A stretch of DNA of 31,986 nt. Source: a virus. Lineage: Duplodnaviria; Caudoviricetes. The notes beneath the pieces were generated by a model. The model was not told the DNA's origin, did no database searches, and saw only the letters and a list, made by a program, of their open reading frames with translations. The position numbers were made by a program, and so were the translations under genes. Positions 1,570 through 29,090 of this stretch are shown one piece after another (the first letter of the stretch is position 1; the number at the start of each line of letters is the position of its first letter). The stretch spans positions 1 to 31,986 of IMG/VR virus record IMGVR_UViG_3300033076_000815; one strand, 5' to 3'.

Positions 1570-2265
1570 ATGGAGAAGAGGGAGTTCCGCACCCCGAAGG
1601 GCCGCACCGTGCGCCTGTGGTGCCGGCCGGGGACCAACGACCAGATGATGGCCTACTCCTGCCTCGATGAGGACGAGTACGGCCTGAAGAACGTCGACCT
1701 CGAGGACGGCCTTGCCGTCGACGTCGGCAGCCACATCGGCATGGTCGCCATCGGCCTCCTCGTGGACAACCCGCACGCGGTCTGCGTGGCGCTCGAGCCC
1801 ATCGCCCAGAACGTGTCCCTCATCGTGCAGAACGCCGAGGAGAACGACGTCCGCCATCGCCTCGAGGTCCGGCACGGCGCGGCCGCGCAGAAGAAGGGCA
1901 TGGTCGACATCGCCTGGGACTTCGAGGGCGGGGACATCGCGGCCATGCACCGCTTCGTCGGGAACCAGCCGATGCCCGATGGCACCGTCCAGAAGACGGC
2001 GAGCGTCCCCGGCGTCACCCTCGCGGACATCATCCCCTCGGGCACGATCCGCCTCCTCGTCACCGACTGCGAGGGCGGCGAGTACGCCCTCCTCGGCAAC
2101 ACCACGGCGACCGGCTGGTCGACGAAGGGCCGCGTCGCGGAGATCCGCGGCGAGTATCACAAGGGCTACAGCCGCCTCGTGAGCCTCCTCGCCAAGACGC
2201 ACGACGTCGAGCGCCTCCGCGGGGACGACGAGGTCGGAGGGTTCGTCGCGAGGCTCCGCGCGTGA
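1570..2265 (+). CDS. FkbM-family SAM-dependent methyltransferase
   Basis: Motif I AVDVGSHIG, VALEP, and LLVTDCEGGEY resembling the FkbM KxDxEGxE motif. GGGGAG RBS. Confidence 0.85.
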   Translation: MEKREFRTPKGRTVRLWCRPGTNDQMMAYSCLDEDEYGLKNVDLEDGLAVDVGSHIGMVAIGLLVDNPHAVCVALEPIAQNVSLIVQNAEENDVRHRLEVRHGAAAQKKGMVDIAWDFEGGDIAAMHRFVGNQPMPDGTVQKTASVPGVTLADIIPSGTIRLLVTDCEGGEYALLGNTTATGWSTKGRVAEIRGEYHKGYSRLVSLLAKTHDVERLRGDDEVGGFVARLRA

Positions 2266-3281
2266 ACGTCCTCCTCATGCTCGCGCATAGCATCGAGGAG
2301 TACCAGCAGGTCCGGCTCATGCATGAGCTCGGGCACCAGGTCTTCTCCATCGGCGCGTACATCGACCCCCGCAGCCCCGGCGACGACAAGCGGCCTCCCC
2401 TGCCCGACGTTCCGTTCCACCAGACCCTCGCCGAGGCCGTCTGGGCCACGCCCGCCCCGAACGGCGACAGCCTGTGGGCAGCGAAGGACAACCTCCCGCA
2501 GGTCGTCATCGACTGGGCCGACGTCATCATCTGCCACCACGTCGAGTGGCGATGGCTCATCGGCAACTGGTCGCGCATCCGCGACAAGCGCGTCGTCTGG
2601 CGCACCGTCGGGCAGTCGACGCACGAGAACGAGGCCCGCATGGCTGCCCTTCGCGCGGACGGCCTGCAGATCGTGCGCTACTCCCCGAACGAGAAGCACA
2701 TCCCCTACTACGCGGGCGAGGACGTCCTCATCCGCTTCTGGCAGGACCCCGACGAGCTCACCGGCTGGACCGGCGAGGACCGCCGCGTCGGCAACGTCAC
2801 CCAGGACATGCGCGGCCGCGCCGAGTGGACGGGCTGGGGCTTCTGGAACGAGGCGACCCGGTGGCTCCCGACGTTCCCGGCCGGTCCGAAGTCCGACGAG
2901 TGGGGCGGTGCCGGCGCGCTCTCCTACGACGACCTCAAGGGCTACCTCCGCCGGATGCGCGCCTACATGTACACCGGCACCTTCCCGGCGTCCTACACCC
3001 TCGGCCTCCTCGAGGCCATGATGACCGGCATCCCGGTCGTCGCCGCGGGCCCGCAGCGGTGGCGCGCGTTCGCGCACCTGCCTTATGCATGGCGGCTGTA
3101 TGAGGCGCATGAGATCGCCGGAGTCTGGTCGGACAGCCCGGACGAGTGCTACCAGATGCTCAACCGCATCCTCTCGGACGACAAGCACGCGGAGGAGGTG
3201 TCGGCCACGCAGCGCGCGAAGGCCGTCGCCGAGTTCGGCCTCCCGGTCGTCGCCCGCGCATGGAAGGAGTTCCTCGGATGA
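2262..3281 (+). CDS. GT-B fold glycosyltransferase (GT4-like)
   Basis: N-terminal MNVLLML...ELGHQV; C-terminal YLRRMRAYMYT...SYTLGLLEAMMTGIPVV typical of a glycosyltransferase group 1 domain. GTGA overlap with the upstream gene. Confidence 0.8.
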   Translation: MNVLLMLAHSIEEYQQVRLMHELGHQVFSIGAYIDPRSPGDDKRPPLPDVPFHQTLAEAVWATPAPNGDSLWAAKDNLPQVVIDWADVIICHHVEWRWLIGNWSRIRDKRVVWRTVGQSTHENEARMAALRADGLQIVRYSPNEKHIPYYAGEDVLIRFWQDPDELTGWTGEDRRVGNVTQDMRGRAEWTGWGFWNEATRWLPTFPAGPKSDEWGGAGALSYDDLKGYLRRMRAYMYTGTFPASYTLGLLEAMMTGIPVVAAGPQRWRAFAHLPYAWRLYEAHEIAGVWSDSPDECYQMLNRILSDDKHAEEVSATQRAKAVAEFGLPVVARAWKEFLG

Positions 3282-4351
3282 GGGTCCTCGCAGACTTCCA
3301 CCACCACGCCCTCGGCGAGTCGCTCGCGATCCTCTTCGACCACTGGGGCGTCGACCTGTACTACCCCGCAGGCATGGACTGGTTCACCTCCGGGACGTGG
3401 CAGTTCGAGAAGGCGTTCCACGGCGACAAGGTGGCCCGCCAGTACCTCGAGGGCATCTGGACCGACGCCGACGAGGAGGACGGCACCCTCGTCAAGCAGG
3501 ACCCGCGCCACCCGATGCGCAAGCTCTACGGCGTCACCTACGACCGCGCCTGCCAGATGGACTGGGACATCGTCCTCTCGACGCTCCCGCACAACGACGA
3601 GGGCCTGCACCGCTTCGCCACCGAGCGCGATGCGCGGTTCGGCATCCAGATCGGGAACGTCATGCAGGACAGCCGCTACGACCTCGCCTCGTTCGTCCTC
3701 GCGTCCTCGACGCTCCCCGGCCACACCACGCCCGCCTCGTGGGGGAAGGTCATCGAGTACCGCGGCGTCCCGACCGTCATCTATCACCAGGCGTTCGACG
3801 ACCGCGGCATCTTTCACGCCGACCCGTTCCCCGGCCTCGGCAGCCGCGAGGTGGCCTCGTGGGTGAACTGCTTCCCCGAGACCAGCCCGTACCCGTCCTT
3901 CGTCGACTTCGCCCGCCGGTACAAGGATGACTTCGACTTCCGCGTCTACGGCTCCTATGGCAGCGCCGCGACCGACGAGCTCGCCGCGGGCGACGTCTCG
4001 TGGGTGCCGCGCATCGGCTCGGAGATGCGCAAGGCGCGCATCGGCTTCCACATGAAGAGCTGGTCCGATGGCTACGGCCACGTCATCCACAACTGGGCCG
4101 CGGTCGGTCGCCCGATCATCTGGGTGGCGGGCTACTACCGCGACAAGCTCGCCGCCCCGCTCTTCGTCGAGGGCGTCAACGCCTGGGACATCGCGAGCCA
4201 CAGCGAGGAGGAGATCGTGGACATCATGCGCCGCCTCCGCGACGACGACGCCTTCTGGCTCGAGGCGTGCGCCGCCTCGCGCGCCCGCTTCGATGAGCTG
4301 GTCGACTTCGACGAGGAGGCGAACGTCATCGGCAGGATGCTCGGGCTGTGA
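3278..4351 (+). CDS. Divergent GT-B fold glycosyltransferase
   Basis: Start moved to ATG 3278 (ATGA overlap; MRVLADFHH). C-terminal KARIGFHMKSWSDGYGHVIHNWAAVGRPII aligns with the GT4 EGFG-x4-EA-x3-G-P segment. Confidence 0.7.
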   Translation: MRVLADFHHHALGESLAILFDHWGVDLYYPAGMDWFTSGTWQFEKAFHGDKVARQYLEGIWTDADEEDGTLVKQDPRHPMRKLYGVTYDRACQMDWDIVLSTLPHNDEGLHRFATERDARFGIQIGNVMQDSRYDLASFVLASSTLPGHTTPASWGKVIEYRGVPTVIYHQAFDDRGIFHADPFPGLGSREVASWVNCFPETSPYPSFVDFARRYKDDFDFRVYGSYGSAATDELAAGDVSWVPRIGSEMRKARIGFHMKSWSDGYGHVIHNWAAVGRPIIWVAGYYRDKLAAPLFVEGVNAWDIASHSEEEIVDIMRRLRDDDAFWLEACAASRARFDELVDFDEEANVIGRMLGL

Positions 4352-5592
4352 AGGTCCTCTTCCTCGGCGACCTCGCCGCCACCGGCTTCGGCTCCGTCAC
4401 GACCGACCTCGGACGCGCCCTGCTCGACCGAGGGCTCGACGTCCGCTTCCTCTCGCAGAACGAGCTCGGCGGCATTCTGGCCGAGCCCTTCGCGAGTCGG
4501 ACCGCCGACATGGCCTTCTACGAGTACCAGGCGAGGACTGCCGGCGTCACCGGCGTCCGCTCGATCCTCGGCGACATCATCGACGGCATCCCCGGACACC
4601 TGCTCGTCAACGGCGAGGCGTTCGGCGACTGGAAGCCGGACGCGGTCCTCCTGCTCTCCGACTTCACCGCGGCACGCATCCTCTTTTCCCGGTTCTCCGA
4701 AGCCCTGCGGAAGCTCCCCGTCTTTCACTACGTCCCCATCGAGGGCGTCGACCTCCCGCCGCTCTGGGCCGCCCTCTGGAACGAGGCCCGCCCCATCGCC
4801 ATGTCCGTCTTCGGGCAGGACGAGATCGAGAAGGTGACCGGCAAGCGCCCGCCGCTCGCCTACCACGGCGTCGACACCGGCACCTTCTACCCGGTGAGCC
4901 CGACCCGTCCCATCGACGTCCCGCGCGAGGACAAGCCGAACGCAGAGACCATCCGCCTCACCTCGAAGGAAGGCTGCAAGCGGTTCTTCGGCTTCGACCC
5001 GTCGTGGACCATCGCCCTCCGCACGGATCGCAACATGCCGCGCAAGCGGTACGGCGCGCTCCTGCGCTCGATGGACCCGGTCCTCGCCGCCCGCCCGGAC
5101 GCCCGCCTCGTCATCCACGCCTCGGCCTTCGACCAGGGCGGCTTCCTCCCCGACAGCATCTCGAAGATGTCCCCGGACGGCGGAGGCCGCGTGATCGTCA
5201 CCGACCGCCCCGGCCTGCCGCGCCCGGTCCTCAACGCGCTCTACAACGCCGCCGACCTGTATGTGACCACATCGGCCGAGGGCTTCGGCCTCTGCATCGC
5301 CGAGGCGCTCGCGTGCGGCGTCCCCGCGGTCGGCATGGACTACTCCGCCGTGCCCGAGGTCATCGGTCCCGCGGGCACCGTCGTCCCGGTCGGTCAGACC
5401 TACGACAACGAGTACGACCACAAGTGGGCCTCGCCCGACGAGGCCGCCTTCACCGAGGCCGTCGCCTACCTCATGGATCGCCCCGCCAAGCGCCGCGAGC
5501 TCGGCAACCGCGGAGTCCGCCACGTCGAGGGCACGTTCACCTGGTCCAAGGCCGCCGAGGTCGTCGCCGCCGAACTTGCACGATGGAGTTGA
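4348..5592 (+). CDS. GT4-family glycosyltransferase
   Basis: MKVLFLGD..ATGFGSVT start, HGVD, RNMPRK, and canonical LYNAADLYVTTSAEGFGLCIAEALACGVP (E-x7-E). Confidence 0.9.
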   Translation: MKVLFLGDLAATGFGSVTTDLGRALLDRGLDVRFLSQNELGGILAEPFASRTADMAFYEYQARTAGVTGVRSILGDIIDGIPGHLLVNGEAFGDWKPDAVLLLSDFTAARILFSRFSEALRKLPVFHYVPIEGVDLPPLWAALWNEARPIAMSVFGQDEIEKVTGKRPPLAYHGVDTGTFYPVSPTRPIDVPREDKPNAETIRLTSKEGCKRFFGFDPSWTIALRTDRNMPRKRYGALLRSMDPVLAARPDARLVIHASAFDQGGFLPDSISKMSPDGGGRVIVTDRPGLPRPVLNALYNAADLYVTTSAEGFGLCIAEALACGVPAVGMDYSAVPEVIGPAGTVVPVGQTYDNEYDHKWASPDEAAFTEAVAYLMDRPAKRRELGNRGVRHVEGTFTWSKAAEVVAAELARWS

Positions 5593-16869: not shown

Positions 16870-17065
16870 CCGCCGGTTCATCCGCGACATGCCCGAGTGG
16901 GGCGACTTCATGCGGTCCGATCACCAGCGCGACGTCCACTGCCTGACTGGAACGGTGGCCGGGTGCATGTGGTGCGAGCGGTCGCAGGAGATCGATGACA
17001 TGTTCGTCGTCGCGAGCCAGGAGATCGAGGCCCGCATGCAGGGCACCCTCTGGGACGGGCAGTGA
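16856..17065 (+). CDS. Small hypothetical protein (H-C...CxxC)
   Basis: 69 aa, overlaps both neighbours, typical codon usage. Confidence 0.6.
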   Translation: MRGTDRRFIRDMPEWGDFMRSDHQRDVHCLTGTVAGCMWCERSQEIDDMFVVASQEIEARMQGTLWDGQ

Positions 17066-17640
17066 CGATGTCCCGCTACATCACCCCCGGCACGAGCCAC
17101 TACGAGCGCGCCCGCCTCTTCGGTGAGGCGCTCCGGCAGGCGCGTCTCCGCGCGAACCTCGGCACCCGCAAGGTGTCGGAGGCGGCGCAGGTGACGCGCA
17201 CGCAGGTCATGCACTACGAGCAGGGCCGCAACATCCCGTCCGTCATCGTCGCCGCACGGATCGCCGCGGCGCTCGACGACCGGAGCCTCCTCCAGATGGC
17301 TCAGGAGGCCAGGCAGCGCGAGTGCCTTCGCTGTAAGGCGACGATCCTCGCCAACACCGGCCGCCCTGCCACCTACTGCTCCGAGGCGTGCCGGCAGCTC
17401 ATGAACAAGGCGCAGCGCAAGCCGGTCGAGCGGGACGTCCGCGTCCTCTCGGCCGAGGTGCGCACCTACCGGCGGCGCATCGCGGAGATGTGCGGCCAGT
17501 GCCCGGACGGGGAGGACGGCTTCTGCCGCCTCGCGGCCTGTCCGTTGCGCTCCGTCTCCCCGCTCCCGTTCGCCCTCGACCGGACTCCCGTCAAGGTGGC
17601 CGTGCCCATCGTGCGCAGGCCGCGACGTGCCCGGGTCTGA
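17062..17640 (+). CDS. XRE-type HTH protein with two Cys-rich zinc-binding regions (paralog A)
   Basis: FGEALRQARLRANLG...YEQGRNIPS HTH_3-like domain; CLRC...YCSEAC; CGQC...FCRLAACPLRSVSPLP. Confidence 0.8.
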   Translation: MTMSRYITPGTSHYERARLFGEALRQARLRANLGTRKVSEAAQVTRTQVMHYEQGRNIPSVIVAARIAAALDDRSLLQMAQEARQRECLRCKATILANTGRPATYCSEACRQLMNKAQRKPVERDVRVLSAEVRTYRRRIAEMCGQCPDGEDGFCRLAACPLRSVSPLPFALDRTPVKVAVPIVRRPRRARV

Positions 17641-17830
17641 CGTGATCATCAAGGCGTGCGCGTGCGGAGGCGTCATCGCGGCGATCTCCGACAAACCCGA
17701 GGCCATCGAGCGCGCGGTGCGCGACCACCAAGCCAAGGCTGGCCACCTCATCTGGCGCGCGAACGGCGGCCTCGACCAGCTCGAGCGGAAGCTCGACGCC
17801 TACGAAGGGAGGCTAGTCCGCAACGTCTGA
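17627..17830 (+). CDS. Hypothetical protein (67 aa, CxC...H...H)
   Basis: Typical codon usage; fills the gap before an intergenic region. Confidence 0.65.
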   Translation: MPGSDVIIKACACGGVIAAISDKPEAIERAVRDHQAKAGHLIWRANGGLDQLERKLDAYEGRLVRNV

Positions 17831-17835
17831 TGCGA

Positions 17836-17933
17836 TACAATGGGGAAGCCGGTACAAGCGGTGACCACATGAGGCCCCGGGCTGTGCTTGTACCACAACC
17901 CGGGGCCGATCCTTTTGGAGGTACAAGCTCCCG
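17836..17933 (+). ncRNA. Candidate structured cis-regulatory or antisense RNA: three hairpins with complementary loops
   Basis: TACAAT at 17836-17841; GGTACAAGC at 17851-17859 and 17920-17928; the exact complement GCTTGTACC at 17886-17894 caps a long stem (17873-17907). Confidence 0.6.
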
Positions 17934-18182
17934 ATGCGAGTCCCCTTCTGGCCGTGCCGGAGTGCGGCAGAGTTCTTCACCGAGAGGAGCGACCTGCTCG
18001 ACGTTTCCGTCGTGAGGTCCAATGGAGGCTGGGACGTCGTTCTGCGGATCGACGGGACCTACACCTACGAGGAGGACGCCGTCGCCGCTGCCGATGGCAT
18101 GCGGGACATGGTCAAGATGATCCCCGACATCGCCTGGAAGACGTATGGCGCGTGGGGCAGATGGGGAAGGCGGGTCAAGTGA
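17934..18182 (+). CDS. Hypothetical protein translationally coupled to the replication initiator
   Basis: 82 aa; GGAGG at 17917-17921; its TGA overlaps the GTG of the next gene. Confidence 0.55.
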   Translation: MRVPFWPCRSAAEFFTERSDLLDVSVVRSNGGWDVVLRIDGTYTYEEDAVAAADGMRDMVKMIPDIAWKTYGAWGRWGRRVK

Positions 18183-18991
18183 CCGCACAGCCCGACCCGT
18201 ACGTCCGGGTCTACTACCGCATCACGGACGACCCGAAGTTCGCCGACGTCTACGACAACGACGCGGCGCTCGCCCTGTGGCTCCGGCTGCTGATCACCGC
18301 AGACGCGACGTGGCCGGCAGCCGCACCGCTGCCGCAGCTCGACCGGGACGCCCTGACCACCCTTGTCAACGCGGGCCTCGTCGACCTCGTCGGGGCGACC
18401 CGATACCGCATCCACGGCCTGGAGTCGGAGCGGTCGAAGAGGACGAACAAGGGCACGCAGATGGCCGCCGCCAGATGGTCCGGCAAGCATGATGCACAAG
18501 CATATGCACAAGCATCCGAGCCGGAATGCACAAGCATCACGCACAGCATTGCTGGGCCTCATGCTGGGCCATGCTCTCCGAGCAACTCCGAGCCGAGCCG
18601 AGCAACTCCGAGCAACTCCGAGCCGAGCATCTCCACTCCGGCGGACGCGCTCGACACCTACTACAGACTCACCGGGTCGTGGCCTTCGGCGAAGGTGGTC
18701 CCGTGGATCAACCAGATGGCCTCGAACCACGGGGAGGAGGCCGTGTCGAAGGCGCTCGCGGCGACGTGGATGGAAGACCCCGACCGGGCGACCCTCATGA
18801 GCCGATGTCGCGACCGCCTTGAGCGGGAGGCGCACGAGCGCGAGAAGGCGTACGAGCGCGCCGAGGCCAGGAGGGCGGAGCGCGACCAGAAGCAGATCGA
18901 GGAGATGCCGCTCGAGAAGCGCCGCGAGAACATGGCCCGCCTCCGCGAGTCCCTCGAGGAAGTAGGCCTCCTGCCGAGGACGGACGCATGA
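18179..18991 (+). CDS. Phage replication initiator (lambda O/replisome-organiser-like architecture)
   Basis: GTG 18179; YVRVYYRITDDPKF...ALALWLRLL N-terminal domain, GTQMAAARW, low-complexity linker encoded by repeats, helical C-terminal domain. Confidence 0.75.
   Translation: MTAQPDPYVRVYYRITDDPKFADVYDNDAALALWLRLLITADATWPAAAPLPQLDRDALTTLVNAGLVDLVGATRYRIHGLESERSKRTNKGTQMAAARWSGKHDAQAYAQASEPECTSITHSIAGPHAGPCSPSNSEPSRATPSNSEPSISTPADALDTYYRLTGSWPSAKVVPWINQMASNHGEEAVSKALAATWMEDPDRATLMSRCRDRLEREAHEREKAYERAEARRAERDQKQIEEMPLEKRRENMARLRESLEEVGLLPRTDA
18484..18630 (+). repeat. Iteron-like repeats, putative replication origin inside the initiator gene
   Basis: ATGCACAAGCAT at 18492, 18504 and 18526 plus partial copies at 18484 and 18539; TGCTGGGCC twice; CCGAGCAACT/CCGAG tandem array at 18578-18629. 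Confidence 0.75.
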
Positions 18992-19209
18992 GGTCCATCG
19001 GGGAGATCGTCGAGAGCCGCGTCGCCGAGGGCCGCGTCGACCCGACCGTCCTGTCGGTCTTCCGCACCATCCCGAAGAAGCTCATGTGGGCGATGGAGAG
19101 GAAGCACGCAGGCAGTCGCGATCACGTCTACGCCTGCCGCGAATGCTGGCTCGTCGCGAAGCAGTTCTACGAGACCATGCTCGCGATCCGCGAGAGGGAG
19201 GCGAAGTGA
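18988..19209 (+). CDS. Hypothetical protein (73 aa, H-x4-H-x3-CxxC)
   Basis: ATGA overlap; HAGSRDHVYACREC. Confidence 0.7.
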   Translation: MRSIGEIVESRVAEGRVDPTVLSVFRTIPKKLMWAMERKHAGSRDHVYACRECWLVAKQFYETMLAIREREAK

Positions 19210-19216
19210 CCGACGA
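19197..19216 (+). repeat. 20-bp direct repeat, copy 1 (GGAGGCGAAGTGACCGACGA)
   Basis: Identical to 19853-19872; contains an RBS and a GTGA start/stop overlap. Confidence 0.9.
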
Positions 19217-19865
19217 CCGCACCGCGCTCTACCGCTACTTCGACGCAGAGGGCCGGCTTCTCTATGTCGGCATCGCGTTCAACCCGATCGCCAGACAGTC
19301 CCAGCATCGCTCTGCCGCGGCCTGGTATGGCTCGCTCGATCGGATGTCTGCCGAGTGGTTCGCGACAAGACGCGAAGCGCTCGATGCAGAACGAAGGGCA
19401 ATCTCGTCCGAAGACCCTCTGCACAACATCAAGAGACCCTCCATTGCTCGACCAGTGAGGACGGCAGGGAGGCGGATGTACATCGAGCATCCCGCTATCG
19501 CACCGTCCCGAGTTTTCATCCGCACGCCTTTGTCGCGCGAGGCCAGGGACCTCTACGACCGCATCTGCTACGAGTGGTGGATTGGCGGCAACGGCGAGTG
19601 GTCGTTCGTCGAACAACGAAAAGCGATGACGTGGCTCGCGCAGATCGGGACGCCTACCTCTCGCAGCTCTCTAGAGCATTTGCTCAATGAGCTCTGGGGC
19701 GCGGAGATGACCTACGACAAGTGGAACGCCCACCTCATCTCTGGCTTTCGCATGCAGCACGACGGCGCTGACTTCCGAGTCGGAGTCCGGCTAAACGAAA
19801 GGGTCTGCAATCTCATGCGCGAGGCATGGACACCGAAGATGACCTTCGTGCAGGAGGCGAAGTGA
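19206..19865 (+). CDS. GIY-YIG nuclease domain protein
   Basis: ALYRYFDAEGRLLYVGIAFNPIARQSQH...EALDAERRAISSEDPLHN; more A/T-ending codons than its neighbours. Confidence 0.85.
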   Translation: MTDDRTALYRYFDAEGRLLYVGIAFNPIARQSQHRSAAAWYGSLDRMSAEWFATRREALDAERRAISSEDPLHNIKRPSIARPVRTAGRRMYIEHPAIAPSRVFIRTPLSREARDLYDRICYEWWIGGNGEWSFVEQRKAMTWLAQIGTPTSRSSLEHLLNELWGAEMTYDKWNAHLISGFRMQHDGADFRVGVRLNERVCNLMREAWTPKMTFVQEAK

Positions 19866-20206: not shown

Positions 20207-20709
20207 TCCGCGAGGCTATCGTCCGCGACCACTTCGCTTCGCGGTACGTCCGCGCCAAGGTCGAGGTGAGGACGACGTTCGGACGCATCGACGTGCTTAC
20301 CGACGAGTTCGTTGTAGAGGTCGAGCCGTTCACGACGTGGAGGCATGGCGTGCGCCAGGCGCTCGCATACGCGCAGGAGACCGGCAAGAAGCCCGCAGTG
20401 GCCGTGTACGGCGACATCGACAGGCAATCCGGTGCGCGAATGTGGCGTGACTGTGCAGGGCTTGTGACGATCTTCATGCTCAACTACCGGACGTGGACGA
20501 GAGTTCGCAACCTCGAGCAGGCGATGTACCCGAAGGCTGCTCCGCCGTCCGACCTCGCACCGAAGGGGCCAAGGCAGCCGAACCGCATGCTCAAGCCGCG
20601 CGGGTACGAGCCGTCGGAAGAGGATCTGTTCCGAGTGAACCAGCGTGTCGGGGCGATCATTCAGGCAGTTCTTGCAGGGCAGTCGGCCAAGTTTGGGGCC
20701 GAGGAGTGA
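20203..20709 (+). CDS. PD-(D/E)xK-like nuclease-fold protein
   Basis: EVRTTFGRIDVLTDEFVVEVE...WRHGVRQALAYA; ATG 20203; atypical codon usage. Confidence 0.65.
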   Translation: MIREAIVRDHFASRYVRAKVEVRTTFGRIDVLTDEFVVEVEPFTTWRHGVRQALAYAQETGKKPAVAVYGDIDRQSGARMWRDCAGLVTIFMLNYRTWTRVRNLEQAMYPKAAPPSDLAPKGPRQPNRMLKPRGYEPSEEDLFRVNQRVGAIIQAVLAGQSAKFGAEE

Positions 20710-21206
20710 CGCCGCAGCAGTGGGCCTTGATGCTCCGGATGGCCGTCAAGAACAAGGGCATCTCGTGGGCCGAGCTCGCCCGCGAGACCCCGATCTCCTC
20801 GTCGTGCCTGATGAAGATGAAGCGCGGCGAACGCATCATCTCCCTCGAGGTGGCCGAGCGCCTGGCGAACGCCCTCGACATGCCAGCCCTCTCGCTCGGC
20901 GTCATCGAGATGCGGACGAAGACCTGCGTCGTCTGCAACGGCACCTTCGTGGATCGCGGGAAGAACCACTACGCCCGCACCTGTAGCGAGACCTGCCTCT
21001 CGACGCGACGGATGCGCGAGGCACGCCAGGTGACGCACGAGCGCCTCGGGCGGCAGCACCTCGTCATGAAGCGCCGCATCGAGAAGTACACCTTGTCCGT
21101 GCTGGCATTCTGTCGGGCATGCGAACCCGAGGGGATGTGCAGGACGCCGAAGTGCGAGCTCCGCACGGTGTCGCCGTTGCCTCTGAAGAAGGGCCTAGAG
21201 AGGTAG
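20706..21206 (+). CDS. XRE-type HTH protein with two Cys-rich regions (paralog B)
   Basis: GISWAELARETPISSS...GERIISLEVAERLANAL; CVVC...TCSETC; CRAC...MCRTPKCELRTVSPLP. Confidence 0.8.
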   Translation: MTPQQWALMLRMAVKNKGISWAELARETPISSSCLMKMKRGERIISLEVAERLANALDMPALSLGVIEMRTKTCVVCNGTFVDRGKNHYARTCSETCLSTRRMREARQVTHERLGRQHLVMKRRIEKYTLSVLAFCRACEPEGMCRTPKCELRTVSPLPLKKGLER

Positions 21207-26333: not shown

Positions 26334-29090
26334 ATGGGCATCGTCGCGAACCTTCTACCGTCGCGCGCGCGGAAGGCCGAGACCGGCATCGGCGCGGTGA
26401 TGATGCGGACGAACCCGCCCCTCTCCATCTTCTCCAAGACCCCGCAGTCGATGATGCGCGACGCGCAGGCGGTCGCCCTCTCCGACATCACGATCCGCGC
26501 CGCCGAGCGCGTCATCGCCAACCGCTTCTCCTCGACGGACTGGCACCTCGAGGACGAGAACGACGTCGAGGTCGGCGACGGCGAAGGCAAGAACAACAAC
26601 CCCGCCTACCTCGCGGTGAAGAGCCTCCTCGAGAAGCCCTACCGCCCCGCGCCCGGCGACCCGCAGAGCACGACCCCGCGGACGTGGGCGAGCCTCTCGA
26701 ACGTCACCTGCCGCCACATGGGCATCTGCGGCTCCGCCTTCTGGTACCTCGACCAGGCCGAGGCGCTGGCCGGCACGCCGCTGCAGATCCTCTACATCAA
26801 CCCGGCGCGCATGACACCCGTCCTCGACAAGGACGGGGCCATCACCGACTGGGTCCTCGACCACGACAACCGCGGCGGCGGCATGCCGCTCGGCCTCGCG
26901 AACGTCATCCACTTCCAGCTCGAGCCCCCCGATGAGGGCGTGTTCCCGGCGGGCCTCGTCGAGACGGCGCTCTCGAAGGTCGAGATGACCAAGCTCTCCG
27001 ACCGCCACGTCACGATGACGCTCGCGGCGGGCGGTCGCCTGTCGGGCATCATGAGCCCGAAGGAAGGCTTCCTCGAGGACCAGGTCTACTCGCAGCTCGT
27101 CCGAGACATCCGCACGATCTCCGAGGCCCCGGACGCCGCGAAGCGCATGCTCATCCTCCGCGGCCCCGTCGAGTACAAGGAAGCCGCGGCCTCCCTGTCC
27201 GACCTCGACCTCGCCGCGCTGAACACCCTCACCCGCGACGACAAGCTCGCCCTCTGGGGCGTCCCGCATTCGTCCCTCGGCATCCCGACCGCGGGCGGCC
27301 TCGGCGGCGGCACGAGCAAGGACGCGGACGAGGCCATCCTCTGGCAGAACGCGGTCAACCCGCGCCTCCGCGTCTTCGCCGAGACGGTGCAGTACCTCCT
27401 CCTCGATCGCTTCGCCACCCTCGGCGTCAACGTCGAGATCGAGTTCGAGACGCCCGAGTTCGACGACGAGATGCCGATGTTCGACATGGCCACGAAGGCC
27501 GCGAACCTCCCGCTCACGAACCGCGAGCGCCGCGACCTCATCGGCCTCGACCCGTTCGGCGACGAGCGCGACGAGGAGGTCTGGCTCCCCGCCGGTCTCG
27601 CGCCCGCCTACTCCATCGCCGCCGCTACCCTCCCGCCCGGCACCCGCACCCTCGCGACCGAAGTCGAGGACCCATTCGACGACGACGTGAGCCTGTATGG
27701 CAAGGCCGTGGACGTCCCCGCCTACGTCCAGTCCGCCGCCCGCCGTGGCCTCCGCTACTACGAGCAGGGCCGCGGAGGCGAGGGCCTAATCCCCGCGACC
27801 ATCGCCGCCGCCCGCGAGATGGCAGCCGGGTCCGTGAGCGAGGCGAAGGTCCGCCGCATCGGTCCGTGGATCGCCCGCCACATCGTCGACCTCGACGCAC
27901 CGCAGAACTCCGACCCGGAGCACCCGGACTATCCCGGCCCCGGCGCGGTCGCGATGCTCCTGTGGGGTGCCGGCACGACGCCCGCACAGGCCAGGCGCAC
28001 GCAGCAGTGGGCCGAGGCCGCAGCCGCCGCCATCGAGCCGGAGAAGGCCAAGGTCCCCGGCACCCGGCGCATCCGGCAGGACGTCGTCGACGCGATGAAG
28101 CGCGACCTCGCAGACGTCATCGCGGGCCTCATGGCCGAGACCGCGCGCAAGGTCGAGAAGAACTACGACCACATCGTCACCCGCCCGGACGATGCGTCCG
28201 CCTACTGGTCCGACGAGCGGGCCGAGAAGCGCCTCATCGCCGCGATGACGCCGCACATCCGCGAGCTCGTCCGCGACACCGTCGACGTGACGCAGACGCG
28301 CTTCGCGAAGGCGGGCATCCTCGACATCATCCTCCCCCGCCTCGTCGCCCTCGCCGGTCGGCAGATCAAGACCGTCCCCGCGACCCTCCTGAAGTCGGTC
28401 CGCACCGCCATCGCCGACGGCATCCGCGACGGCCTCTCCCCGCGCGACCTCGGGAAGCTCATCGAGGAGCGCATCGGGAACAACGAGTACTACGCCGAGC
28501 GCATCGCCCGCACGGAGTCCATGCGCATCCTCAACCAGGCGCAGATGGAGTCCTACCGCGAGTCCGGCATCACGCAGGTGATCGCGGTCGACGGCGACGA
28601 CGACGACGAGTGCGCCGCCCGCAACGGCCGCATGTACACCCTCGCCGAAGCCGAGGCCGAGAACCTCCGCGAGCACCCGAACGGGACCCTCTCCTGGGAC
28701 CCCGTCACCGACTTCCGCCTCCTCGACCCCGGCACCGGCCAGGTGATGGGACCGGCGAAGGCACAGGAGGAGCAGCCGATGGGCCTGAAGGCCACGATGG
28801 AGAGCATCGCGATCCACCTCGCCCCGGTCATCAACGTCGAGATGCCAGAGCAGAAGGCGCACGTCGTCAACGTGAGCGTCCCCGAGGCGCCGGCACCGAT
28901 CATCAACGTCACCCCGCAGGCCGCCATCGTGAACGTCGAGCAGCCCGACGTCATCGTCAACGTGCCCGAGCAGAAGGCGGGCCTCGTGCAGGACATCCGC
29001 ATCATCGACATGCCGGACCGCCGCCTCTCGCAGGTCGTCGTCCGTGACGGGCAGGGCCGCATCGTCGGCACCGAGAGCGCCACCGACTGA
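26334..29090 (+). CDS. Portal protein fused to an extra domain, a MuF/SPP1 gp7-like minor head domain and a repetitive C-terminal tail
   Basis: HK97-like portal motifs in the first ~420 aa (GSAFWY, LYINPARM, VIHF, LWGVP, LTNRERRDLIGLDP); AERIARTE...C...NG...HPNG MuF motifs; (V/I)NV repeats at the end. Confidence 0.9.
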   Translation: MGIVANLLPSRARKAETGIGAVMMRTNPPLSIFSKTPQSMMRDAQAVALSDITIRAAERVIANRFSSTDWHLEDENDVEVGDGEGKNNNPAYLAVKSLLEKPYRPAPGDPQSTTPRTWASLSNVTCRHMGICGSAFWYLDQAEALAGTPLQILYINPARMTPVLDKDGAITDWVLDHDNRGGGMPLGLANVIHFQLEPPDEGVFPAGLVETALSKVEMTKLSDRHVTMTLAAGGRLSGIMSPKEGFLEDQVYSQLVRDIRTISEAPDAAKRMLILRGPVEYKEAAASLSDLDLAALNTLTRDDKLALWGVPHSSLGIPTAGGLGGGTSKDADEAILWQNAVNPRLRVFAETVQYLLLDRFATLGVNVEIEFETPEFDDEMPMFDMATKAANLPLTNRERRDLIGLDPFGDERDEEVWLPAGLAPAYSIAAATLPPGTRTLATEVEDPFDDDVSLYGKAVDVPAYVQSAARRGLRYYEQGRGGEGLIPATIAAAREMAAGSVSEAKVRRIGPWIARHIVDLDAPQNSDPEHPDYPGPGAVAMLLWGAGTTPAQARRTQQWAEAAAAAIEPEKAKVPGTRRIRQDVVDAMKRDLADVIAGLMAETARKVEKNYDHIVTRPDDASAYWSDERAEKRLIAAMTPHIRELVRDTVDVTQTRFAKAGILDIILPRLVALAGRQIKTVPATLLKSVRTAIADGIRDGLSPRDLGKLIEERIGNNEYYAERIARTESMRILNQAQMESYRESGITQVIAVDGDDDDECAARNGRMYTLAEAEAENLREHPNGTLSWDPVTDFRLLDPGTGQVMGPAKAQEEQPMGLKATMESIAIHLAPVINVEMPEQKAHVVNVSVPEAPAPIINVTPQAAIVNVEQPDVIVNVPEQKAGLVQDIRIIDMPDRRLSQVVVRDGQGRIVGTESATD

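What the first reader, a model, noticed from the sequence alone, without database searches (positions are those of the whole stretch)
17836..17936. Three-hairpin kissing-loop RNA switch upstream of the replication operon
Seen: after a TACAAT box come hairpin 1, GCCG-[GTACAAG]-CGGT (17848-17862); a long hairpin 2, GGCCCCGGGCTGTG-[CTTGTAC]-CACAACCCGGGGCC (17873-17907), followed by GATCCTTTT; and hairpin 3, GGAG-[GTACAAG]-CTCC (17917-17931), whose stem contains the GGAGG SD of ORF 17934. Loops 1 and 3 are identical and exactly complementary to loop 2 (9-nt match including closing bases). ORF 17934 is coupled by GTGA to the replication initiator. Established analogies: phage P4 CI RNA (seqB pairs with flanking seqA/seqC), P1 C4 RNA, and pseudoknot-activated rep translation in IncI/IncB plasmids. 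Inference: mutually exclusive loop1-loop2 and loop2-loop3 pairing, or a processed hairpin-2 sRNA acting in trans, controls termination or translation of the initiator. This could provide RNA-based copy-number or immunity control in a phage with no integrase or classical repressor.
Basis: partly seen in the sequence, partly recalled or inferred. Interest (0 to 1): 0.85.

Follow-up and report, generated by a model that had tools for sequence, protein, structure and literature searches.

The report
Three-loop RNA lock on phage replication
In front of this water-borne phage's predicted DNA-replication genes lie three hairpin sequences whose 7-letter tips match like lock and key, and related phages keep the match with twelve different letter sets, so the RNA likely works as a swappable, protein-free lock that shuts off replication-protein synthesis by phages carrying the same key.

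Summary
Real and well supported. The three hairpins are there as described. Rep-homologue searches, blind to the loops, found the same leader at 19 of 54 related loci. Among 15 analysed elements there are 12 loop alleles; loop 1 = loop 3 and loop 2 = their exact complement in 15 of 15. Stems covary too, a -10 hexamer sits just before hairpin 1, and hairpin 3 holds the Shine-Dalgarno sequence. Loop alleles do not follow Rep sequence and no antisense -10 box was found, which argues against iterons and an IncI-type countertranscript. The loop-3 site lies at or after the SD, so pairing should block translation. The H1-H2 linker is always longer than the H2-H3 linker, favouring H1 as a cis decoy and H2 as a trans-acting repressor of H3: P4 CI / P1 C4 logic in a minimal, unrelated RNA. 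The cassette is absent from 11 of 11 loci in cell genomes; integrases were seen only in leaderless relatives (small numbers). No Rfam match; not found in the papers searched. The scan noted similar leaders before in other phages (unchecked notes). Processing, trans action and lifestyle are untested.

The parts
17836..17841 (+). -10-like hexamer TACAAT; predicted start of transcription at or near 17848, the first base of hairpin 1
   Evidence: TAnnnT 6-22 nt before loop 1 in 12 of 15 elements against 0.9% background; two relatives have TTGAC plus a 17-nt spacer; not called by the consensus scan in the window
17848..17862 (+). Hairpin 1: 4-bp stem, 7-nt loop X (17852-58); predicted cis decoy for hairpin 2
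17873..17907 (+). Hairpin 2: 13 bp plus one mismatch, 7-nt loop complementary to X (17887-93); predicted repressor RNA
   Evidence: 7 of 14 stem pairs show compensatory change in 7 aligned sequences; stem-keeping variants in public contigs
17917..17931 (+). Hairpin 3: 4-bp stem holding SD GGAGG (17917-21), loop X (17921-27) between SD and AUG; predicted target
   Evidence: SD unpaired probability 0.06 in the window
17934..18182 (+). 82-aa ORF of unknown function, inserted between H3 and rep and coupled to rep by GTGA
   Evidence: 44% identical over 57 aa to an ORF in L002; no Pfam or PHROG hit; L014, with a 92% identical Rep and the same loops, lacks it; a contig in X4 joins 17931 to 18180
18179..18991 (+). 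Predicted replication initiator / replisome organizer (N-terminal winged-helix-like domain, linker, helical C-terminal part)
   Evidence: phrog_3926 E 9.4e-08; BFVD replisome organizer E 8.4e-04; only weak winged-helix hits in PDB, none at E <= 0.001
18492..18635 (+). 13-bp and 10-bp direct repeats inside rep; candidate lambda-like origin iterons, unrelated to the loop 7-mer
   Evidence: the same repeats occur in L015, whose loops differ at 4 of 7 positions
17062..17830 (+). Upstream HTH/Cys-rich gene and 67-aa gene; the cassette follows their homologues in L019 and L025

Best explanation
This is a conserved three-hairpin leader in front of a predicted phage replication-initiator operon, with matched 7-nt loops (X, complement of X, X); hairpin 2 likely acts from other transcripts as an allele-specific repressor that kisses hairpin 3 and would block ribosome binding, while hairpin 1 likely ties up hairpin 2 within a new transcript. 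SHOWN: layout, covariation, -10 box position, SD in H3, independence from Rep sequence. INFERRED steps: (1) transcription starts at H1; (2) in a new transcript H1 kisses H2, so the weak H3 (about -5 kcal/mol) can be opened and Rep is made, as just after infection; (3) decay or cleavage removes the weak H1 and leaves the very stable H2 as a 35-50-nt RNA; (4) free H2 accumulates with genome copy number, kisses H3 and clamps the SD-AUG region shut; (5) this gives negative feedback on replication and excludes incoming phages of the same allele, which selects for new three-way-matched alleles. The likely setting is a non-integrating phage (plasmid-like carrier state or lytic), since chromosome-associated relatives lack the cassette.
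For: 12 alleles, X1 = X3 and X2 = rc(X) in 15 of 15, all Watson-Crick; only 2 of 132 ordered non-cognate allele pairs can pair fully even with G.U. On 7 aligned sequences 98.5% of cells pair, 5 of 7 kissing pairs change on both sides, 0 of 500 shuffles reach it, and slid controls give 32-47%. Complementarity stops at or within 3 nt of the loop, as for kissing with stems intact. X lies between SD and start codon, or contains the SD (L012, L030, L033). H1-H2 linker longer than H2-H3 linker in 13 of 13; leaving out L030, whose H2 the rule mis-defined, it meets a crude strict length need in 11 of 12 against 1 of 12 for H2-H3 (4 of 12 on the lenient bound). TAnnnT within 130 nt of the rep start in 14 of 18 leader-bearing against 0 of 18 leaderless loci. 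Cassette in 19 of 41 virus/metagenome contigs with a visible leader, 0 of 11 cell-genome loci (p 0.004; 13 of 31 against 0 of 10, p 0.017, after collapsing near-copies). Integrase in 0 of 7 leader-bearing and 5 of 9 leaderless virus records (p 0.034). P4 precedent: passage in PMC4825925; C4 precedent: passage in PMC12197685.
Against: No expression data: only contigs could be laid, so no small RNA, start site or processing site is shown. No conserved 3' CCA after H2 (2 of 12), so the nuclease is unknown. The geometry is a crude model with recalled helix values; in the window itself the H2-H3 linker (9 nt) just reaches the strict bound. The loop2-loop3 distance is the tighter one (32-39 nt against 34-54), which could reflect a cis constraint. 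The three-hairpin fold is the minimum-energy fold in only 3 of 15 and lies up to 6.5 kcal/mol above it in the rest; loop 1 of the window is unpaired with probability 0.24. Two H1-H2 modules with no H3 stay perfectly matched, which a pure decoy role does not require. The integrase contrast rests on incomplete records (0 of 5 for strict three-loop records, p 0.086), and complete leaderless G415 also lacks one. No partition genes were recognised in G407 or G409.
Confidence: 0.5

Rival explanations
1. The trans-acting species is an intact H1-H2 RNA of about 70 nt, released by partial termination after H2.
For: Two orphan modules (L019:1128-1218, L025:3607-3696) keep -10 box, H1 and H2 with new matched alleles and a U-rich tail but have no H3. 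At least 4 U in the 9 nt after H2 in 4 of 12. Loop spacings are nearly equal (34-35 and 32-34 nt) in the window's subgroup. Precedent for head-to-tail kissing oligomers: passages in PMC7357161.
Against: H2 is not called a terminator in the window; 8 of 12 tails have 3 U or fewer; spacings are unequal in the long subgroup (up to 54 against 36-39 nt).
Confidence: 0.2
2. A purely cis switch: H2 pairs with H1 or with H3 in the same molecule, toggled by the 5' end, read-through transcription or a protein.
For: Tightly held loop2-loop3 distance; relatives L013 and L151 have a long hairpin whose loop is complementary to the SD region a few bases downstream.
Against: Does not explain 12 nearly orthogonal alleles, including changes between very close relatives (Rep N-termini 91% identical, 4 of 7 loop letters changed). 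H2-H3 linkers shorten as H2 lengthens (rho -0.65, with the mis-defined L030 row included).
Confidence: 0.13
3. H2-H3 pairing activates translation by melting H3, as the IncI/IncB pseudoknot does; H1 is the inhibitor.
For: With H3 melted the linker is long enough for a cis pseudoknot; the window and L033 have a coupled upstream ORF.
Against: The 7-bp duplex would lie between SD and AUG or on the SD itself; complementarity rarely extends into the H3 stem (1 nt or less per side in 11 of 15); no antisense -10 box in 15 of 15; 13 of 15 have no leader ORF.
Confidence: 0.1
4. The three 9-mers are DNA sites: Rep iterons, operators, recombinase spacers or single-strand DNA hairpins.
For: All loop pairs are strictly Watson-Crick; in the window, L012 and L015 H2 folds better on the minus strand.
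Against: Alleles do not track Rep N-terminal identity (rho -0.09, p 0.37; same loop at 44% identity, four changes at 91%); separate iteron-like repeats lie inside rep; arms differ between the three sites and covary as stems; G.U pairs 20 on the plus strand against 8 on the minus strand; position tied to -10 box, SD and start codon.
Confidence: 0.04

Closest known systems
Satellite phage-plasmid P4 immunity: CI RNA with targets seqA and seqC
   Same: Antisense element inside the same transcript, between an upstream and a downstream complementary site, controlling replication genes (passage in PMC4825925).
   Different: No Rfam similarity; three plain hairpins with one 7-nt contact; the target is the SD hairpin of the first gene; termination not supported; helper-independent tailed phage, likely of Chloroflexota hosts.
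Phage P1/P7 C4 antisense RNA (Rfam RF01695; c4-2 motif)
   Same: Loop-borne complementary sequence blocking a ribosome-binding site, with allele differences giving heteroimmunity (passage in PMC12197685).
   Different: C4 controls an antirepressor and, from recall, uses two recognition loops and RNase P maturation; here one loop, no conserved CCA, and the replication operon is the direct target.
IncI/IncB/IncL-M plasmid rep pseudoknot with Inc RNA
   Same: Loop pairing near the rep ribosome-binding site; loop alleles as specificity groups (reference titles only; mechanism recalled).
   Different: No countertranscript promoter; all three partners on the sense strand; pairing site placed to inhibit.
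ColE1 RNA I / RNA II kissing loops (recalled)
   Same: Fully complementary 7-nt loops; loop alleles define incompatibility.
   Different: Not a countertranscript, and a protein initiator's translation, not a primer, is the likely target.
RNA-based origins of extrachromosomal mycobacteriophage prophages (PMC7157519)
   Same: Non-coding RNA in replication control of non-integrating phages.
   Different: Those phages lack RepA and the RNA is thought to start replication; here a Rep gene follows the RNA.

Membership tests
P4 CI / P1 C4 immunity RNAs | Antisense element lies in the same transcript between an upstream and a downstream target | tested here: met
   15 of 15 elements
P4 CI / P1 C4 immunity RNAs | Sequence-structure similarity to the Rfam models | tested here: not met
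   0 hits at gathering score in the window and 12 loci; best E 0.62, an unrelated hairpin, at relaxed threshold
P4 CI / P1 C4 immunity RNAs | Downstream target overlaps the ribosome-binding region of the controlled gene | tested here: met
   SD-like GGAG/GAGG/GGTGG in the H3 5' arm in 12 of 15; in L030 and L033 GGAG runs into the loop; none clear in L159
P4 CI / P1 C4 immunity RNAs | Mature small RNA is cut out of the precursor and acts in trans | not testable with these tools
   only contigs were available
P4 CI / P1 C4 immunity RNAs | RNase P-type substrate with 3' CCA after the stem (recalled) | tested here: not met
   CCA within 9 nt after H2 in 2 of 12
P4 CI / P1 C4 immunity RNAs | Two separate recognition loops in the antisense RNA (C4, recalled) | tested here: not met
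   one 7-nt loop in all 15
P4 CI / P1 C4 immunity RNAs | Allelic loop variants give heteroimmunity | tested here: inconclusive
   12 alleles, 2 of 132 cross-pairable; immunity itself untested
P4 CI RNA | Acts by premature transcription termination | tested here: inconclusive
   no terminator called in the region; U-rich tail in 4 of 12
IncI/IncB rep pseudoknot with Inc RNA | Countertranscript from a convergent promoter | tested here: not met
   no minus-strand TAnnnT from loop 2 to 100 nt past the start codon in 15 of 15
IncI/IncB rep pseudoknot with Inc RNA | Leader peptide coupled to rep | tested here: not met
   2 of 15 (window, L033); in 13 of 15 H3 abuts the rep start
RNA-based prophage origins (cluster A mycobacteriophages) | No Rep protein in the replication cassette | tested here: not met
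   Rep-like gene follows
Iteron / operator arrays | Repeat sequence follows the DNA-binding domain | tested here: not met
   rho -0.09, p 0.37 over all pairs of 15

The most novel reading that the evidence does not exclude
A protein-free, swappable RNA immunity and copy-counting cassette: short H1-H2 RNAs join hand in hand or double-kiss the rep mRNA to count phage genomes, and the orphan H1-H2 modules in L019 and L025 are second keys that silence, or sense, the replication leader of competing phages with another allele, i.e. RNA-coded phage-versus-phage interference. With the scan's unchecked notes from unrelated phages, it would be one member of a widespread, repeatedly invented class of kissing-loop rep leaders.
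Probability: 0.2. Interest if true: 0.9.

Novelty: new variant of a known kind. Interest (0 to 1): 0.72.

Why it matters
RNA-only phage immunity is known from a handful of enterobacterial phages (P4, P1/P7). This element shows the same target-antisense-target logic reduced to about 85 nt and three 7-nt loops, placed directly on a replication initiator, in an unrelated and uncultured phage group. Twelve natural alleles make the mechanism testable at once in a laboratory reporter, without the host. It offers an explanation for how phages with no recognised integrase or partition system limit replication and exclude kin, shows a regulatory cassette that moves independently of its gene (10 changes on the Rep tree, no clustering), and would supply a natural set of orthogonal riboregulators.

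Tried and rejected
Exact three-9-mer pattern in viral contigs: 0 hits. Stem-based patterns (16, 91 and 120 loci, the last scan stopped at 6 of 64 parts): one re-find of L005 and no new module; they served as controls, with one chance two-loop match (L186) in 3.19 Mb of both strands. HTH-gene search in viral contigs: nothing. Rep against GenBank phages and plasmids: no match. RNA model over 151 cell genomes: one weak hit without matched loops. PDB sequence and fold searches for Rep: nothing at E <= 0.001. Protein atlas for the 82-aa ORF: best score 0.80, uninformative. A metatranscriptome contig (X15) covers a cassette variant, but contigs show neither transcription nor ends, so it is not used as evidence of expression. 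The automated stem rule was too noisy and was replaced; one search had the two groove labels swapped, and only its vertex model was carried on. The alignment of the long subgroup was too poor to model. The other GTACAAG copies in the window (3919, 5683, 27173) are not hairpin loops. Tyrosine-recombinase-site reading rejected: arms are not shared between the three sites.

Full report
OBSERVATION. The window is a 68.6% GC tailed-phage record, linear and about 82% complete. The triplet is the only 8-mer X..rc(X)..X in the window, but alone it is not decisive: 13 of 200 shuffles give a 9-mer triplet without the hairpin condition and the fold z-score is -1.56. Rfam gives nothing at gathering score for the window or 12 related loci and only chance hairpin hits at relaxed threshold.

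THE DOWNSTREAM GENES. ORF 18179-18991 matches phrog_3926, replication initiation protein (E 9.4e-08), has 118 database relatives, and its model matches a 'replisome organizer' in BFVD (E 8.4e-04); PDB gave only weak winged-helix hits. It carries internal 13- and 10-bp repeats, as lambda-like initiators do (analogy recalled). Initiator function is therefore predicted, not shown. The 82-aa ORF is real (44% identity to an ORF in L002) but is a local insertion: L014, with a 92% identical Rep and the same loops, puts H3 directly on the rep start.

RELATIVES. Loci were collected through Rep, without using the loops: 54 records. Nineteen carry the three-hairpin leader, 3 carry another leader (L011, L013, L151), 2 are cut off just before the start codon, and 30 have none; of 18 leaderless loci examined, 17 have an upstream frame of 58 codons or more ending at the rep start. 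L012, L030, L034 and L159 were found by the 8-mer scan or by eye, not by the strict hairpin detector. For statistics I used the window and 14 of the 19 loci (L021, L024, L031, L034, L039 dropped as near-copies). These 15 hold 12 loop alleles; loop 1 equals loop 3 and loop 2 is the exact complement in 15 of 15; only 2 of 132 ordered non-cognate pairs could pair fully. On the 7 sequences that align well, 98.5% of cells pair, 5 of 7 kissing pairs and 7 of 14 H2 pairs change on both sides, and 0 of 500 shuffles reach the score (the shuffle ignores relatedness, slid controls give 32-47%). Public contigs add stem-keeping changes, e.g. 17885 T>C with 17895 A>G, and show the same cassette between many different flanks. 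A strict three-hairpin scan of 150 sequences (1.63 Mb, both strands) hit only rep leaders.

ANATOMY. A TAnnnT hexamer lies 6-22 nt before loop 1 in 12 of 15 (background 0.9%), usually 10-11 nt before it, which puts the predicted start at the first base of H1; L028 and L037 have a TTGAC hexamer at 17-nt spacing. Within 130 nt of the rep start it is seen in 14 of 18 leader-bearing and 0 of 18 leaderless loci. No such hexamer occurs on the minus strand in 15 of 15. G.U pairs favour the plus strand, 20 against 8, although the window's own H2 folds better on the minus strand. Complementarity is confined to the loop and a G-C closing pair. H3 holds the SD, and X lies between SD and start codon or overlaps the SD. 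Loop allele is unrelated to Rep N-terminal identity (rho -0.09), and the cassette is scattered over the Rep tree (10 changes, shuffled mean 11.7; many forks weak). It is a module that moves independently of Rep, which argues against iterons.

MECHANISM. A duplex between SD and AUG should exclude the 30S subunit (established knowledge), so H2-H3 pairing is read as repression. The H1-H2 linker is longer than the H2-H3 linker in 13 of 13 non-redundant elements (L014 and L020 also dropped). Without L030, whose stem the rule mis-defined, a crude 120-degree kissing model with recalled helix values is satisfied by 11 of 12 H1-H2 linkers and 1 of 12 H2-H3 linkers (4 of 12 on a lenient bound). That favours H1-H2 in cis and H2-H3 in trans. 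Fast allele turnover is what a specificity determinant acting between genomes would show. I therefore commit to: H1 decoy, liberated H2 repressor, H3 target (0.5). Against it: no RNA data, no conserved processing signal, the tighter loop2-loop3 spacing, alternative folds up to 6.5 kcal/mol better in 12 of 15, and two orphan H1-H2 modules with new matched alleles and no H3, about 1.3 kb upstream of the rep leader in L019 and L025 and in front of weakly ParB-like ORFs. The orphans support the rival in which an intact H1-H2 RNA is the agent (0.2). Cis-only (0.13), activation (0.1) and DNA-site (0.04) readings follow.

LIFESTYLE AND HOST. Tyrosine or serine integrase genes occur in 5 of 9 leaderless virus records and 0 of 7 leader-bearing ones (p 0.034, but p 0.086 for the strict subset, and most records are incomplete). 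None of 11 Rep loci in cell genomes has the cassette, against 19 of 41 virus or metagenome contigs. G407 (100%) and G409 (98%) show no integrase, and no ParA or repressor among the 31 and 35 non-structural ORFs I scanned. So cassette phages are probably non-integrating; whether they persist as plasmids or are lytic is open. Rep relatives occur in 8 of 401 genomes of the family of G001, whose record is titled Chloroflexota, and in 2 of 401 of a phylum-wide sample; one record is titled Mycobacteriales. The host is a lead only.

COMPARISON. It works like P4 CI (passage in PMC4825925) and P1/P7 C4 (passage in PMC12197685) but fails membership by homology, loop number and CCA. It fails the IncI test for a countertranscript (only reference titles seen in PMC10724649; mechanism recalled) and differs from the Rep-less RNA origins of PMC7157519 (abstract and Discussion read). 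Kissing oligomers: passages in PMC7357161. Eight literature searches (listings only), passages of the motif surveys PMC2864571, PMC5737381 and PMC10690425 and 6 supplement files of the last (files 1, 2, 4 not searched; supplements of the other two not read) showed no description of this element; the library lacks most subscription papers. The scan's own notes list similar kissing-loop rep leaders in other genomes, one with three sites (unchecked); none matched this Rep or region by sequence.

VERDICT. A real, uncatalogued structured RNA family with unusually clean three-way covariation, tied to phage replication initiators: a new variant of the P4/P1 RNA-immunity design. Interest 0.72.

Noticed in passing
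L013:5901-5988 and L151:7918-8003: A second rep-leader type: TACAAT, then one long hairpin whose large loop carries a shared CAGGYGTCGG stretch and a covarying 10-11-nt complement of the SD region just before the rep start.
   Followed up: partly
L011:5895-5997: Two-site variant in a complete, integrase-less genome (G407): hairpin loop complementary to a site just before the SD, same allele as L012/L030, no matching hairpin 1.
   Followed up: partly
L019:1128-1218 and L025:3607-3696: Orphan -10/H1/H2 modules with two further matched alleles and U-rich tails, before divergent ORFs with weak ParB_N matches (E 0.023, 0.00055).
   Followed up: partly
window 17863-17872 and homologues: ACCA in the H1-H2 linker in 9 of 15 elements (read); unexplained.
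   Followed up: no
window 17888 and homologues: The second base of the H2 loop is U in 11 of 12 alleles, as in U-turn loops; the first base of X is G in 11 of 12 and often completes the SD.
   Followed up: no
window 17915-17931 in runs X2, X4, X15: Contigs carry the same allele followed by a different start and reading frame, so the cassette also precedes other first genes.
   Followed up: no
window 1570-5592: Methyltransferase and two glycosyltransferase genes directly after the major capsid gene; possible virion or host-surface glycosylation.
   Followed up: no
window 18179-18991: Rep is mosaic: P0007 and P0012 share the N-terminal domain but have another C-terminal domain.
   Followed up: no
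window 19206-19865 and 20493-21206: GIY-YIG-like endonuclease and a second Cro/C1-type HTH protein downstream of rep.
   Followed up: no
window 26334-29090: 918-aa portal fused to a Mu F-like head morphogenesis domain.
   Followed up: no
L033:1239-1304: A 21-codon ORF between H3 and rep, ending in what looks like the 3' half of an older hairpin 3.
   Followed up: no
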